The notes under the pieces are model-generated. The model saw only the letters and a program-made list of their open reading frames with translations, was not told the DNA's origin and made no database searches. Below, in pieces: positions 45,841 through 49,859 of a DNA stretch of 64,000 bases (its first letter is position 1; the number at the start of each line of letters is the position of its first letter). The position numbers and the translations under genes are program-made. The stretch comes from an uncultured Burkholderiales bacterium (GTDB lineage: Bacteria > Bacteroidota > Bacteroidia > UBA8524), in contig CAZOZL010000002.1 of the NCBI GenBank assembly GCA_964584305.1, forward strand, positions 211,336 to 275,335, written 5' to 3'.

Positions 45841-46404
45841 TTACTTATTCCAGATTAGTAAATGATTTTTAGGTAATATTTGACTTTTCAATTTAGAAAA
45901 TTGCTCCGATGTATAAACTAAGTACCTCACTTTTTTATTGATAATTGCTTCCGCTTTTTCAATCAACTTCATTAAGTACTCTTTGCTAATATTGCCAATA
46001 ATTAATAGGTCTATTATTGGGCTATCTATTCCCTTGCCTAACTCTCCTACCAAATACACTCGCTCCAGTTCTCCTAAGTTTGATAATACTTGCCCTACTA
46101 TCCTGTCTAAGCCAGTGTATTTAAACACTATGCTATTAATATCAGGAAATAATGGATGAGATGTATTTGCTCTAAAAATTTTTTTGTTTCCTTGCGCTTG
46201 GCTTTTAAGTAATCCCGCATCTTCAAGTTTATTAAGTTCTAACCTAATGGCATTAGAACTCTCTCCAAACTCAGACTCTAAACCACGCAAATGGGCTTCG
46301 TTATCTTTGTTCAAGAAAAATTTTAATAAGAGTTTTACTCTTGTCTTTGAAGAGATTAGTGTGTCTAACACTTTAGTATTATTTACTATAAAAACAGGGA
46401 GCAC
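45841..46404 (-). CDS. Winged-helix (ArsR-like) DNA-binding protein with a C-terminal domain of uncertain fold; candidate locus regulator
   Basis: The N-terminal region (residues ~14-70) has an HTH pattern (KTRVKLLLKFFLNKDNEAHLRGLESEFGESSNAIRLELNKLEDAGLL). It sits between the wzc terminator and the nucleotide-sugar genes. Confidence 0.45.
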   Translation of the reverse strand: MLPVFIVNNTKVLDTLISSKTRVKLLLKFFLNKDNEAHLRGLESEFGESSNAIRLELNKLEDAGLLKSQAQGNKKIFRANTSHPLFPDINSIVFKYTGLDRIVGQVLSNLGELERVYLVGELGKGIDSPIIDLLIIGNISKEYLMKLIEKAEAIINKKVRYLVYTSEQFSKLKSQILPKNHLLIWNK

Positions 46405-46447: not shown

Positions 46448-46558
46448 GAGTAGAAAAAGTACTCAAAGTTAACACTTTTTTTAATATTTTAAACCTTATT
46501 TTACAGATTACTGGCTTCAATCAGCAACTGCTTGAAACCAACAAGTAAGTATTTAGTC

Positions 46559-49048
46559 TTACTTAAGTCCCAAGATACGTTTCCAAAGCGACCGCTTAGC
46601 AGGTGCTTCTTCTTCGTAGTAACCATAACCACCATAACTCCCGTAACCGTAACCATAGCCGTAACCATAACCGTAGCCATAACCATAACCATATTGATTA
46701 CCTGCTTTAACATCATTCATTATGATATTAATATTTTTTACCTGCTGTTGTTTATACAAATCGTCAACAAACAATACCATATCCTTAACAGTGTAGTTTT
46801 GGCGTACTACATATAGATTTATATCAGAATATTTCATCAACTCAGAGGCGTCTGATACTACACCAAATGGCGGTGTATCCATAACCACATAGTCAAACTC
46901 TTCTTGTAGTTCTTTTAATAATGAAATAAAACTATCACTCAATAACAACTCTGACGGGTTTGGAGGTGTTGGTCCTGCGGCTATAAAATATAAGTTTTCA
47001 AACTTCGTTTTTTGAATGATCTGCTCTTTCGTTGACCTACCTATTGAGTAGGTAGAAATTCCATGTTCATTAGTCAATTCAAAATCATTATAAATTTTAG
47101 GTTTTCTCAAATCTAACCCTATCAAAAGGGTTTTCTTCTTTCCAAAAGCTAAAATACTTGCCGTATTTATTGAACAAAATGTTTTCCCCTCACCACTTAT
47201 ACTTGAGGTTATTAGAATGGTAAGGTTGTTCTGTTTTTCACCCGACAAAAATTGCAAACTACTCCTAATAGCTCTAAACTGCTCACTAACTGATGACTTA
47301 GGGTTATTATACACCACCAAATTAGTTTCTTTATCGCTATGCCCTATGCCCCCAATAACGGGTATATTGGTTATTTTTTTTATGTCTTCAGTACTACGAA
47401 TTTTATTGTTAAAAAACTCAATAATTGAAATAATTAAAATAGGTAGTATTGCTCCTAACAAGCCTCCCGTTAAAAAGTTAACTCCACTTTGTGGGCTAAT
47501 TTTTTCTTTAACACTTGCCCTATCAATAATTTTGTTATCTGGCTTTGTTGATGCTTTTAAAATTCCTAACTCAGCCCTTCGTTGTAAAAGAAAATTATAA
47601 ATGCCCTCATTCACCATAAATTTCCTCTGAATTACAAAAAACTCTCGTTCTTTACTTGGCAGCAAGTTTATTTCAGATTGTAATTTACCTAACCGTGTCT
47701 CTACCTCGTCTTCAGCAATTTTAACACTTTGCTGCATATTCTTAACCACCTCTAATAAACCCGCACTGTACTGATTAATTGCCTCTAACTGTTTTTTATA
47801 AATTGGATTTATATCTGTACCAGTTTGCTTGGTTTTCTTAAACTCAATTTGCAAATCAACTAATTTCTGGATACGCTCTCGAAGATCATCGCTCTCTATT
47901 CCTATAAGAGAAGGTGCAATAAGGTCTGATGTGTAATCTTTTTTATTTATATATTCAGAAAGGTAATTAAGGTAACTGGTTTGTAATTTTATTTGTGCTC
48001 TCTCTTCAAGAATACTATTTAAGCGAGTAAGTAATAAACCACCTTGTGCAGAAAGATCAATAGCATTCTTATTTACTCTAAACTTTTCTAAATGATCTTC
48101 GACTAGTTGTAAAGAATCGCTAATGGTTGAAAGCTGACTTTCAATAAAATGAATAGCACTTTGGGCAATTTTATTTTTCTCTTCCAAGCCCACTTCCATA
48201 AAAATATCTTGTAGCTTATTTATATAAGCTTTCATTTTTTCACGGCTATTTCCTTGCAACTTTATACTTACACCTGCTGACCCTTTTGAAAGAGCATCAA
48301 GTTGTAAGTTTTTTCTAAAAGCGTTTACAACATCTTTATTTTTGTTTAATACAATTTTTACTTTAGCACCCTTTGAAAAACTTTTAGTGCTAATGATTTT
48401 AAATTTATAGCAACTTGATTGTATCCACTCTCCATATTTCTTTTCTCCTGCTGGGTATTCACAATCTTTTACTTTAACTGGCTCTTGGGTATTCAGCATA
48501 GAGTTAATGCCTACTTGTGGCATAGAAACTATATATTTATTATCATCAACACTTTCTACTATTATAACTCCGCCAAGTGGTTGAGGGGACACAGTATCAA
48601 AAACAATTTTCACAGGTGATTCTACACCAAAAACTTCATTTGATACAGCTCTTCCAACGGTATAATAACTGGTATTAAACTCTGAGTCTTTTATAACCCT
48701 TGCATGCAACTCATACGATTTAAGGACTAATAAAGAGTTCTCAAATATTAATCTTGAATCTGAAAAGAATATTGATTGTATGCTTGAACCTAACCCTTGT
48801 TTGTTTTGCTCCTCTTGCAAAAGCATTGTGCCTTCTACCGAATACACGGGTTTGGTGTATCTGTTTACTAAAAACGAGCCAAAAAGACCTACCAAAACAC
48901 TAAGTATAATAAAAGGAAGGATATTTAGTACATTAGTGAACAAAAACTTCTTTATATCAAAGCCCTCTTGGGTTTCTTGCTCAATAGCACCATTTGGGAT
49001 TATGTAATCAGTATTTCCAGTATTGTCCGAAGAAGATATTTTCATCAA
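46559..49048 (-). CDS. wzc: Wzc-type polysaccharide co-polymerase / BY-tyrosine kinase (PCP-2a)
   Basis: N-terminal Wzz-like domain with a TM helix, a long coiled-coil periplasmic region and a second TM helix. C-terminal P-loop ATPase with Walker A SISGEGKT and Walker B VVMDTPP, followed by a Tyr-rich tail. Confidence 0.9.
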   Translation of the reverse strand: MMKISSSDNTGNTDYIIPNGAIEQETQEGFDIKKFLFTNVLNILPFIILSVLVGLFGSFLVNRYTKPVYSVEGTMLLQEEQNKQGLGSSIQSIFFSDSRLIFENSLLVLKSYELHARVIKDSEFNTSYYTVGRAVSNEVFGVESPVKIVFDTVSPQPLGGVIIVESVDDNKYIVSMPQVGINSMLNTQEPVKVKDCEYPAGEKKYGEWIQSSCYKFKIISTKSFSKGAKVKIVLNKNKDVVNAFRKNLQLDALSKGSAGVSIKLQGNSREKMKAYINKLQDIFMEVGLEEKNKIAQSAIHFIESQLSTISDSLQLVEDHLEKFRVNKNAIDLSAQGGLLLTRLNSILEERAQIKLQTSYLNYLSEYINKKDYTSDLIAPSLIGIESDDLRERIQKLVDLQIEFKKTKQTGTDINPIYKKQLEAINQYSAGLLEVVKNMQQSVKIAEDEVETRLGKLQSEINLLPSKEREFFVIQRKFMVNEGIYNFLLQRRAELGILKASTKPDNKIIDRASVKEKISPQSGVNFLTGGLLGAILPILIISIIEFFNNKIRSTEDIKKITNIPVIGGIGHSDKETNLVVYNNPKSSVSEQFRAIRSSLQFLSGEKQNNLTILITSSISGEGKTFCSINTASILAFGKKKTLLIGLDLRKPKIYNDFELTNEHGISTYSIGRSTKEQIIQKTKFENLYFIAAGPTPPNPSELLLSDSFISLLKELQEEFDYVVMDTPPFGVVSDASELMKYSDINLYVVRQNYTVKDMVLFVDDLYKQQQVKNINIIMNDVKAGNQYGYGYGYGYGYGYGYGYGSYGGYGYYEEEAPAKRSLWKRILGLK
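46612..46696 (-). repeat. In-frame hexanucleotide microsatellite (ccRtaR)n encoding the Wzc C-terminal (GY)n tyrosine cluster GYGYGYGYGYGYGYGYGSYGGYGYY
   Basis: The plus strand reads ccataaccgtaaccatagccgtaaccataaccgtagccataacc..., i.e. about 12 tandem GGn-TAY codon pairs. Confidence 0.9.
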
Positions 49049-49058
49049 TTTTTTACTA

Positions 49059-49859
49059 TTATCGGTTAATGAATGTTACTACTACTAATGTTGCTGAAAG
49101 GATAGAAAGAATTGTAGTTAAGGTTTGTAACCCATTAACTCCCACTCCGTAAGCTCTCCGCTTCAAGGGTTCAACATATAAAACATCATTAGGCTGTAAA
49201 TAAAAGTATGGAGAGTTAATCACATTTTTATCTAAAATATCTATGTAGTGTATTTTAGCCCCATCAGGATACTGCCTTAATAGTACAATTTTATCTCTTC
49301 GTGCTATTTCTTTTAAGTCGCCCCCAGTAGCAAGTGCCTCAAAAATATTCACTTGGTTCTGCATAACTACGTACTTACCTGGTCGGTTAAATTCTCCTAA
49401 AAGTGAGAATCTGACGCCCCCAATTCTTACCACAACATACACACCTGATTGAAGTTTTTTTATCTCTTCCCCAATCTTTTTTTCTGCCTGAAAAACTGTT
49501 AACCCATCAACTTTAATAAGCCCTATAACAGGGAAATTTATATAACCAGAATCATTAATAGTGTATCCGCTTGTATAAAACAAATCACCTCCTTGTGCCG
49601 CACTTACGTTACCCATATTTTGAGCGGCTTGGTTATCAAATGTAAAAAAACTTGTAAACTCTTTATTAGCACCAATCACATCAATATTTATAATATCGTT
49701 AGTTTGTAATCTATACAGCTTCCTATCAAGTTTAAAACTATCTGAATATGAAACATTATCATCCTTTTCTTGTAGATAGACCACTTTCTTGTTTGATATA
49801 CAAGATCCTAAAAAAAGGGTTACAAGTAAAAAAATTGTAAATTTAAACTGTTGCTTCAT
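49059..49859 (-). CDS. wza: Wza-like polysaccharide export outer-membrane lipoprotein (short Bacteroidetes form)
   Basis: Lipobox LFLGSC, a Poly_export (PES) motif region and an SLBB-like domain. It lies immediately upstream of wzc. Confidence 0.85.
   Translation of the reverse strand: MKQQFKFTIFLLVTLFLGSCISNKKVVYLQEKDDNVSYSDSFKLDRKLYRLQTNDIINIDVIGANKEFTSFFTFDNQAAQNMGNVSAAQGGDLFYTSGYTINDSGYINFPVIGLIKVDGLTVFQAEKKIGEEIKKLQSGVYVVVRIGGVRFSLLGEFNRPGKYVVMQNQVNIFEALATGGDLKEIARRDKIVLLRQYPDGAKIHYIDILDKNVINSPYFYLQPNDVLYVEPLKRRAYGVGVNGLQTLTTILSILSATLVVVTFINR

What the first reader, a model, noticed from the sequence alone, without database searches (positions are those of the whole stretch)
46600..46700. 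Wzc tyrosine-kinase tail encoded by a hexanucleotide microsatellite, a possible contingency locus for capsule regulation
BY-kinase Wzc proteins normally end in an irregular Tyr cluster that is autophosphorylated to control polymerisation and export. Here the cluster is an almost perfect (GY)n tract, GYGYGYGYGYGYGYGYGSYGGYGYY, encoded by about 12 tandem ccRtaR hexamers. Six-nucleotide repeats can expand or contract in frame by slipped-strand mispairing, which would change the number of phosphorylatable tyrosines without destroying the protein. This could act as a tunable rheostat on chain length or capsule amount.
Basis: seen in the sequence. Interest (0 to 1): 0.65.

Follow-up and report, generated by a model that had tools for sequence, protein, structure and literature searches.

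The report
Tyr-Gly repeat tail of Wzc kinase
The repeat is the normal tyrosine-rich tail of a capsule-export kinase in this group of Bacteroidota; it gains and loses Tyr-Gly units slowly over evolution, and this copy shows no sign of being a fast genetic switch.

Summary
A BY-kinase (Wzc-type) gene at 46559..49048 (-) ends in (YG)9-S-YG-G-YG-YY, with 13 Tyr, at window 46616..46693.

- The regular (YG)n tail is not peculiar to this gene. 47 of 50 related genome loci have 5-17 consecutive YG units.
- All of these are followed by the same acidic patch and basic amphipathic end.
- In-frame unit gain and loss does occur in the family. Close relatives with at least 7 units differ by one unit in 6 of 12 pairs.
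- One such pair shows a slippage signature. 5 of 10 protein clusters at 90% identity or more are polymorphic by one unit.
- These changes appear only at 7% or more synonymous divergence, far slower than contingency loci.
- This copy is heavily scrambled by synonymous changes. Only 1 of 8 neighbouring units are identical and the longest perfect period-6 run is 17 nt.
- Its internal DNA self-similarity is in the lowest 5% of the family.
- All four assemblies of this organism encode the identical protein.

Best reading: an ordinary clade-typical Y-cluster, kept periodic by protein-level selection, whose copy number drifts slowly. A rheostat role for unit number is plausible but untested.

The parts
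46559..49048 (-). Wzc-type BY-kinase gene. 829 aa from the TTG; gene callers use the ATG at 49045, giving 828 aa.
   Evidence: ORF list. TIGR01007 scores 145.6 bits against a cut-off of 108; AAA_31 and GNVR also match. E. coli K30 Wzc 7nhr matches at E=2e-42. The 828-aa product is on record in a JGI assembly.
48875..48949 (-). Predicted first transmembrane segment (about aa 34-58)
   Evidence: Kyte-Doolittle 19-residue mean of 1.86
47414..47488 (-). Predicted second transmembrane segment (about aa 521-545), just before the cytoplasmic kinase domain
   Evidence: Kyte-Doolittle mean of 1.74. It aligns with TM2 of 7nhr.
47264..47284 (-). Oligomerisation motif ExxRxxR (EQFRAIR, aa 589-595)
   Evidence: Regex match. 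E, R and R are invariant in 34 relatives. It aligns with E. coli 'EAIRGLR'.
47180..47206 (-). Walker A P-loop (SSISGEGKT, aa 615-623)
   Evidence: Read from the sequence. The G-E-G-K-T columns are invariant. It aligns with the Wzc P-loop.
47105..47128 (-). Walker A' (LLIGLDLR, aa 641-648)
46868..46888 (-). Walker B (VVMDTPP, aa 721-727)
46616..46693 (-). Y-cluster: (YG)9-S-YG-G-YG-YY, 13 Tyr, aa 786-811. This is the finding.
   Evidence: It aligns on the Y-cluster of 7nhr. AF2 gives pLDDT below 50, i.e. disordered.
46607..46615 (-). Acidic patch EEE directly after the last Tyr
   Evidence: Present in 106 of 128 relatives.
46562..46606 (-). Basic amphipathic extreme C-terminus APAKRSLWKRILGLK
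   Evidence: Net positive in 97% of relatives. The hydrophobic moment is 0.62 against 0.45 in shuffles. AF2 models a short helix at aa 822-826 with low confidence.
49059..49859 (-). Wza-like outer-membrane polysaccharide export protein, immediately upstream in the same direction
   Evidence: Pfam Poly_export at 55.5 bits against a cut-off of 28

Best explanation
The tract is the C-terminal tyrosine cluster of a single-chain (P-type) BY-kinase. The kinase belongs to a Wza/Wzc, Wzx/Wzy-type polysaccharide locus of a Bacteroidota bacterium.

Inferred mechanism, by homology with E. coli Wzc:
- The accumulated charge breaks the ring.
- A phosphatase resets it, and this cycle paces polymerisation and export.

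The strict Tyr-Gly periodicity is a protein-level trait of this clade. It gives equivalent, flexible, interchangeable acceptor sites. It is not a peculiarity of this gene.

Over evolutionary time the number of units drifts by in-frame gain and loss of 6-nt or larger blocks through replication slippage. Unit number appears to stay inside a tolerated range.

In this genome the units have been scrambled by synonymous substitutions. The tract is therefore a poor slippage substrate and behaves as ordinary coding sequence, not as a hypermutable contingency locus.
For: Shown:
- Identity as a BY-kinase.
  - TIGR01007 scores above its cut-off.
  - E=2e-42 to E. coli K30 Wzc, with the YG tract aligned on its Y-cluster.
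  - Walker A/A'/B and ExxRxxR are present and invariant in relatives.
  - Wza lies next door.
  - The surrounding locus is over 40 kb and carries a flippase, glycosyltransferases and NeuB.
- The tail is predicted disordered (pLDDT below 50) on a confident kinase core.
- (YG)n is clade-wide. 47 of 50 genome loci have 5-17 units. The 80 metagenome loci have 2-14.
- Unit number changes among relatives.
  - 6 of 12 close pairs with at least 7 units differ by one unit. 0 of 21 pairs with 4 or fewer units differ.
  - L078 has TATGGC TATGGC where L083 (97.4% identical flanks) has a single TATGGC.
  - 5 of 10 protein clusters at 90% identity or more are polymorphic by one unit.
- Family tracts carry more in-frame DNA self-similarity than codon-shuffled controls: 1085 against 917 +/- 28.
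- The change is slow. The first length differences appear at 0.07-0.08 synonymous codon divergence. Members with identical flanks share the same count.
- This copy looks stable.
  - 1 of 8 neighbouring units are identical and the longest perfect run is 17 nt.
  - The longest self-match is 11 nt against a null of 14.8 +/- 3.2, z=-1.2, the 5th percentile of 79 loci.
  - All four contigs that carry the locus encode the identical 828-aa protein.

From the literature:
- The number and positions of Y-cluster tyrosines vary across BY-kinases.
- Ring disassembly depends on the overall phosphorylation level, about 4 pTyr per monomer (PMC9800525).
Against: - Autophosphorylation of this tail is inferred from homology only.
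- No cognate phosphatase was found in the 64-kb window.
- The four assemblies come from one JGI sample series and give consensus sequence only. Minority length variants within a population would not be seen.
- Purifying selection on length could hide a high raw slippage rate.
- A few relatives do carry long perfect runs that should be slippage-prone. L023 has 11 x TATGGT, L054 has 8 x TACGGC, and L022 has 7+7.
Confidence: 0.8

Rival explanations
1. This is the first reader's idea: an in-frame contingency locus. The hexamer tract slips at high frequency within populations. That would produce subpopulations with different numbers of phosphorylatable tyrosines, and so different capsule chain length or amount.
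For: - The unit is 6 nt, so slippage keeps the reading frame.
- One-unit polymorphism exists in relatives and within protein clusters at 90% identity or more.
- The L078/L083 difference has a slippage signature.
- Some relatives have long perfect runs.
- Spontaneous Wzc variants do alter chain length in Klebsiella (PMC10597399).
- Ring disassembly depends on the overall phosphorylation level, so Tyr number could matter (PMC9800525).
Against: - This copy has almost no perfect repetition: 17 nt at most, and the lowest 5% of the family for self-similarity.
- The protein is identical in all four assemblies.
- In relatives, length changes track sequence divergence rather than occurring between identical backgrounds.
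- Unit number is conserved (12/12, 7/7) in pairs whose tract codons have turned over. That points to stabilising rather than diversifying selection.
- No paper describing such a mechanism was found.
Confidence: 0.1
2. The Tyr-Gly tract acts mainly as a low-complexity self-association or spacer element, for example phospho-reversible clustering of Wzc rings. It could also act as a tether whose far end is held by the basic amphipathic C-terminus. In this reading it is more than a list of acceptor tyrosines.
For: - The tract is predicted disordered.
- In 106 of 128 relatives it is followed by an acidic patch. In 97% it is followed by a basic amphipathic end. E. coli K30 Wzc lacks this.
- 13 Tyr is far more than the roughly 4 pTyr threshold reported for E. 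coli Wzc (PMC9800525).
Against: - There is no direct evidence for it.
- The tract occupies exactly the Y-cluster position.
- More distant Bacteroidota homologues have short irregular Y-clusters in the same place. That argues for continuity of function.
- This reading adds to acceptor function rather than excluding it.
Confidence: 0.07
3. The repeat is an assembly or sequencing artefact.
For: Low-complexity sequence in a metagenome assembly can be mis-assembled. Some database homologues show frameshifted tails.
Against: - The same sequence appears in four long contigs.
- The reading frame stays open through a conserved acidic and basic tail.
- Homologous tracts occur in over 120 independent loci.
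Confidence: 0.01

Closest known systems
E. coli Wzc (K30 / K-12) C-terminal Y-cluster
   Same: - Same architecture: two TM segments, a periplasmic domain, a Walker A/A'/B kinase with ExxRxxR, and a flexible Tyr-rich tail.
- The YG tract aligns on the K30 Y-cluster ...YYRYGHNHYGYSY.
- It sits next to Wza.
- The presumed cycle is the same: trans-autophosphorylation, ring disassembly and resetting by a phosphatase (PMC9800525).
   Different: - Here there are 13 Tyr in a strictly alternating Tyr-Gly array, against 6-7 irregularly spaced Tyr.
- There is an extra 18-residue acidic and basic amphipathic extension after the cluster.
- No phosphatase gene lies nearby.
- It scores far below the equivalog cut-off: 183 against 1068 bits.
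Streptococcus pneumoniae CpsD '(YGX)4 repeat domain' (Morona et al. 2003, cited in PMC4574921)
   Same: A BY-kinase tail organised as a short Tyr-Gly-containing peptide repeat that is the autophosphorylation site and regulates capsule.
   Different: - The period is 3 (YGX) with 3-4 units, against period 2 with 9 or more units.
- CpsD is a separate cytoplasmic protein (F-type) with CpsC as its membrane partner.
Porphyromonas gingivalis Ptk1 (a Bacteroidota BY-kinase)
   Same: Same phylum. It is a single-chain kinase with Walker A/A'/B and an RK cluster, and its Y-cluster is autophosphorylated (PMC8863745).
   Different: Ptk1 is reported to have 6 Tyr in a 16-aa region. That is not a long pure dipeptide repeat.
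Simple-sequence-repeat contingency loci (e.g. Haemophilus tetranucleotide and Campylobacter poly-G tracts)
   Same: Tandem short units whose number can change by slipped-strand mispairing. They often affect surface structures (PMC8437040 and PMC12721329 listed; the rest is general knowledge).
   Different: - Those tracts are long and perfect, change within a culture, and usually switch a gene on or off by frameshift.
- This tract is interrupted at nearly every unit and would change in frame only.
- It shows no variation among the available assemblies.
Ser-Asp dipeptide repeat (R region) of Staphylococcus aureus Clf/Sdr proteins (from memory, not checked here)
   Same: A dipeptide repeat encoded by degenerate 6/18-nt units. 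Its length differs between strains without destroying the protein.
   Different: That is an extracellular stalk or spacer, not a kinase substrate. It has many more units.

Membership tests
BY-kinase (Wzc/Etk/Ptk, single-chain P-type) | Walker A, A' and B motifs of the P-loop kinase domain | tested here: met
   SSISGEGKT (615-623), LLIGLDLR (641-648) and VVMDTPP (721-727). They are invariant in 34 relatives and align to 7nhr. TIGR01007 scores 145.6 bits against a cut-off of 108.
BY-kinase (Wzc/Etk/Ptk, single-chain P-type) | C-terminal tyrosine cluster | tested here: met
   13 Tyr in aa 786-811, aligned on the K30 Wzc Y-cluster
BY-kinase (Wzc/Etk/Ptk, single-chain P-type) | Oligomerisation motif ExxRxxR on helix alpha2 | tested here: met
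   EQFRAIR at 589-595. E, R and R are invariant.
BY-kinase (Wzc/Etk/Ptk, single-chain P-type) | N-terminal transmembrane activator domain: two TM helices flanking a periplasmic Wzz/GNVR domain | tested here: met
   Two hydrophobic segments at about 34-58 and 521-545. GNVR scores 27.4 bits, just under its cut-off of 27.7. Residues 449-797 align to full-length Wzc 7nhr. No dedicated TM predictor was run.
BY-kinase (Wzc/Etk/Ptk, single-chain P-type) | Genomic association with Wza and a Wzx/Wzy-type polysaccharide locus | tested here: met
   A Poly_export protein lies directly upstream. A flippase, glycosyltransferases, NeuB and nucleotide-sugar enzymes lie downstream.
BY-kinase (Wzc/Etk/Ptk, single-chain P-type) | Cognate phosphotyrosine phosphatase (LMW-PTP or PHP type) | tested here: not met
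   No CX5R or HxH..P..DDG motif occurs in any ORF of 100 aa or more. No phosphatase family appeared among the 36 ORFs scanned against Pfam. It may be encoded elsewhere. It is not part of the kinase's own definition.
BY-kinase (Wzc/Etk/Ptk, single-chain P-type) | Tyrosine autophosphorylation activity | not testable with these tools
   Needs biochemistry or phosphoproteomics.
E. coli Wzc equivalog (NF008568) | Score above the curated equivalog cut-off | tested here: not met
   183.4 bits against a cut-off of 1068. It is a homologue, not an orthologue-level match.
SSR contingency locus | Long tract of identical units, a good slippage substrate | tested here: not met
   The longest perfect period-6 stretch is 17 nt and 1 of 8 neighbouring units are identical. 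The longest in-frame self-match is 11 nt, below the codon-shuffle mean of 14.8.
SSR contingency locus | Repeat number differs between near-identical strains or within a population | tested here: inconclusive
   For this organism, 4 of 4 contigs encode the identical protein, but they come from one sample series and are consensus only. For the family, one-unit differences are seen at 87-97% flank identity and within clusters at 90% identity or more. No read-level data were available.
SSR contingency locus | Change in repeat number changes expression or function | not testable with these tools
   Needs engineered (YG)n variants.
CpsD-type (YGX)n repeat domain | Tripeptide YGX repeat at the C-terminus of a separate cytoplasmic kinase | tested here: not met
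   The period is 2, not 3, and the kinase is fused to its membrane domain.

The most novel reading that the evidence does not exclude
In this Flavobacteriales-like clade the Y-cluster may be a true coding microsatellite. Its unit number would be tuned by slippage, so that lineages or subpopulations set polysaccharide chain length or amount by changing the number of acceptor tyrosines. Copies with long perfect runs (for example 11 x TATGGT in L023) would be in a mutable state. Scrambled copies like this one would be in a locked state.
Probability: 0.12. Interest if true: 0.6.

Novelty: new member of a known kind. Interest (0 to 1): 0.27.

Why it matters
This corrects the idea that the tail is exceptional. 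A long pure (YG)n Y-cluster, followed by an acidic patch and a basic amphipathic end, is the standard tail of Wzc in a large group of environmental Bacteroidota. That form does not seem to be described in the papers I could search.

The family data show that the number of acceptor tyrosines is evolutionarily labile, from 5 to 17 units, through in-frame slippage. That makes the clade a natural allelic series for testing how Y-cluster size sets the timing of the Wzc phosphorylation cycle and polymer length.

For this particular gene nothing unusual is indicated.

Tried and rejected
- Metagenome scan for same-species variants.
- Exact look-ups of the window protein and nine long-tract relatives in the protein-cluster collection, with and without the stop codon. 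None is on record, so within-cluster variation could not be tested for long tracts.
- Exact look-up of the small gene just downstream of the tail, to find other contigs spanning it. It is not on record under any start I tried.
- Look-ups of Wza and the 430-aa dehydrogenase. These gave the same four long contigs plus one truncated contig, and no tail variant.
- The two further protein searches returned mostly short fragments with 2-5 YG units. They were useful for breadth but not for long tracts.
- 'Selection for codon scrambling' was considered as an anti-slippage device.
  - Neighbouring identical units are under-represented: 92 against 112 +/- 8.
  - However, lag-2 identity and overall self-similarity are over-represented.
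  - Tyr codon usage in tracts equals that outside them.
  - The pattern fits turnover by block duplication at least as well. I do not claim anti-slippage selection.
- The antisense ORF at 46532..46816 (+) was rejected as a gene. It is the reverse-complement reading (VT/IT repeats) of the YG tract.
- Literature searches for YGYGYG tails, Bacteroidetes Y-clusters and SSR-driven Wzc variation found nothing specific.
- Morona 2003 could not be opened.
Full report
**What is there**

The window carries an 829-codon ORF on the minus strand, 46559..49048. Its C-terminus reads ...NDVKAGNQ-(YG)9-S-YG-G-YG-YY-EEEAPAKRSLWKRILGLK*.
- The Tyr-Gly tract is aa 786-811, window 46616..46693, with 13 tyrosines.
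- Tandem Repeats Finder reports period 6, 8.3 copies and 79% matches. Periods 12 and 18 fit better, at 86% and 88%.
- A (TAYGGN)4 pattern occurs only here. None was found in 100 shuffles.

**What the gene is**

The protein passes the NCBIfam model for polysaccharide-biosynthesis tyrosine autokinases: TIGR01007, 145.6 bits against a cut-off of 108. It is far below the E. coli Wzc equivalog cut-off.
- It matches full-length E. coli K30 Wzc (7nhr) at E=2e-42 over residues 449-797. The YG tract lies on that protein's Y-cluster.
- Walker A, A' and B and the ExxRxxR oligomerisation motif are present. They are invariant in 34 relatives.
- Two hydrophobic segments bracket a roughly 460-residue outer domain.
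- A Wza-like Poly_export gene lies directly upstream.
- Downstream lie over 40 kb of nucleotide-sugar enzymes, a NeuB-type synthase, a cytidylyltransferase, a flippase and glycosyltransferases.
- AlphaFold2 on the cytoplasmic part gives a confident kinase core (pLDDT above 90). The tail is disordered at residues 784-819, with pLDDT below 50.
- No phosphotyrosine phosphatase was found in the window.

**Is a regular (YG)n tail unusual?**

No, not in this lineage. A scan of one genome per species returned 52 related loci. Most are Flavobacteriales-type MAGs (Schleiferiaceae, Cryomorphaceae, Owenweeksia, 'Bacteroidia bacterium'). The best match is 80% identical.
- Of 50 loci with a readable C-terminus, 47 have 5-17 consecutive YG units.
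- Eighty metagenome loci at 48-57% identity have 2-14 units.
- More distant Bacteroidota fragments have 2-5 units mixed with other residues.
- After the last Tyr, 106 of 128 tails have an acidic patch. 97% then end in a net-basic, amphipathic segment.

The window's tail is therefore the clade's standard design. The literature already notes that the number and positions of Y-cluster tyrosines vary across BY-kinases. It also notes that ring disassembly depends on the overall phosphorylation level, about 4 pTyr per monomer in E. coli (PMC9800525). Pneumococcal CpsD is known for a '(YGX)4 repeat domain' (reference in PMC4574921).

**Does unit number change in frame?**

Yes, in the family.
- Among close locus pairs with at least 7 units (87-100% nucleotide identity in the kinase domain), 6 of 12 differ by exactly one unit. 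None of 21 pairs with 4 or fewer units differs.
- L078 and L083 have 97.4% identical flanks. They differ only in that L078 has TATGGC TATGGC where L083 has one TATGGC. This is the footprint of slippage between identical neighbours.
- In ten protein clusters at 90% identity or more, five contain members with one YG unit more or fewer.
- Across 56 de-duplicated tracts with at least 7 units:
  - The summed longest in-frame self-match exceeds codon-shuffled controls: 1085 against 917 +/- 28.
  - Identity at lag 2 is in excess: 134 against 100 +/- 8.
  - Identity between direct neighbours is in deficit: 92 against 112 +/- 8, P about 0.008.
- 16% of 79 tracts individually exceed their own shuffles at P<0.05.
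- In two pairs that keep the same unit number, tract codons differ at 33-36% of positions. Synonymous codons in the flanks differ at 10-15%. This suggests turnover with conserved length. The samples are small.

**Is it a contingency locus here?**

The evidence says no.
- In this copy only one of eight neighbouring unit pairs is identical. The longest perfect period-6 stretch is 17 nt.
- Its longest in-frame self-match is 11 nt. That is below the mean of its own codon shuffles (14.8 +/- 3.2) and at the 5th percentile of the family. There is no trace of recent duplication.
- The exact 828-aa protein is encoded on four long contigs. Look-ups through two neighbouring genes find the same four long contigs and no variant tail.
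- In relatives, the first length differences appear at about 7-8% synonymous codon divergence. Cluster members with identical flanking sequence share the same count.
- That is roughly one fixed unit change per tract per 0.1-0.2 synonymous substitutions per site. It is orders of magnitude slower than classical contingency loci, whose repeat numbers differ between colonies of one strain (general knowledge).

Caveats:
- The four contigs come from one sample series and are consensus sequences.
- Selection on length could mask a higher raw mutation rate.
- A few relatives have long perfect runs that should be unstable: 11 x TATGGT in L023, 8 x TACGGC in L054, and 7+7 in L022.

**Most likely mechanism**

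Shown:
- The homology and the motifs.
- The position of the tract on the Y-cluster.
- The predicted disorder of the tail.
- Conservation across the clade.
- Slow in-frame unit turnover.

Inferred:
- The tail is trans-autophosphorylated in a kinase ring, and accumulated charge drives ring disassembly.
- A phosphatase encoded elsewhere resets the cycle.
- The Tyr-Gly alternation supplies many equivalent, flexible acceptor sites.
- Unit number may shift the timing of the cycle, but with 13 Tyr against a threshold of about 4 the effect of one unit is probably small.

Spontaneous Wzc point variants do alter chain length in Klebsiella (PMC10597399). Mutational tuning through Wzc is therefore plausible in principle.

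**Verdict**

This is a real and correctly located feature, and it is ordinary for its clade. The contingency-locus reading is not supported for this copy. It remains a low-probability possibility for relatives with perfect runs.

Noticed in passing
window 46562-46615 (-), aa 812-829; also the tails of L001-L132: After the Y-cluster the clade keeps an acidic patch and then a basic amphipathic end. Examples are SLWKRILGLK, FFKRLFKG and PFWKRLFRR. From memory, this resembles the C-terminal membrane-targeting helix of MinD (KGFLKRLFGG). E. coli K30 Wzc ends right after its Y-cluster. The segment may anchor or dock the far end of the tail.
   Followed up: partly
window 47141/47142 (inside wzc, codon about 636); L135:6718 and L136:2274: Two short contigs from sister JGI samples are 100% identical to the window up to the same nucleotide. 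Each then runs into a different unrelated sequence before ending. One continuation is the reverse complement of a subtilisin-like gene. This is either an assembly chimera at a strain-variable junction or a real rearrangement breakpoint inside wzc.
   Followed up: partly
YG tracts of 56 de-duplicated loci (L001-L132): Synonymous codons tend to alternate. Identical neighbouring hexamers are under-represented and identity at lag 2 is over-represented. This could reflect 12-nt block duplication or loss of tracts with identical neighbours. It is unexplained.
   Followed up: partly
YG tracts versus kinase domains of loci with at least 7 units: Gly codons in the tracts are 80% GGT/GGC, against 52% in the adjacent kinase domain. 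GGA and GGG are avoided. The Tyr TAT:TAC ratio is the same inside and outside the tracts.
   Followed up: partly
P0129, P0136, P0178, P0188 (database homologues): Some metagenome gene products read the YG tract out of frame (AMAMATAMVMV..., GMAMGMGMG...). This means a frameshift in or just before the tract. These are either sequencing errors or real inactivating slips.
   Followed up: no
window about 4057-46404 (-): A polysaccharide locus over 40 kb long lies downstream of wza-wzc. It carries NeuB-type synthase, UDP-GlcNAc 2-epimerases, cytidylyltransferase, HisF/HisH-like pair, two formyltransferase-like genes, a PIG-L deacetylase, a flippase and several glycosyltransferases. This suggests a nonulosonic-acid-containing, heavily modified polymer.
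   Followed up: partly
window 45841-46404 (-): A small gene sits directly downstream of wzc, 176 aa as called in JGI. It has only weak ArsR-type HTH matches. It may be a locus regulator.
   Followed up: no
window 46532-46816 (+): A 94-aa antisense ORF (VTITTITPVTVTIAVTITV...) is just the reverse-complement reading of the YG tract. It is not a gene.
   Followed up: yes
whole window: No LMW-PTP or PHP-type phosphotyrosine phosphatase was found by motif search of ORFs of 100 aa or more. None appeared in the 36 ORFs scanned against Pfam. The Wzc partner phosphatase must be encoded elsewhere or be of another type.
   Followed up: partly
L037 (genome locus): The public record has a run of N exactly across most of its YG tract, so its unit number cannot be read.
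   Followed up: no
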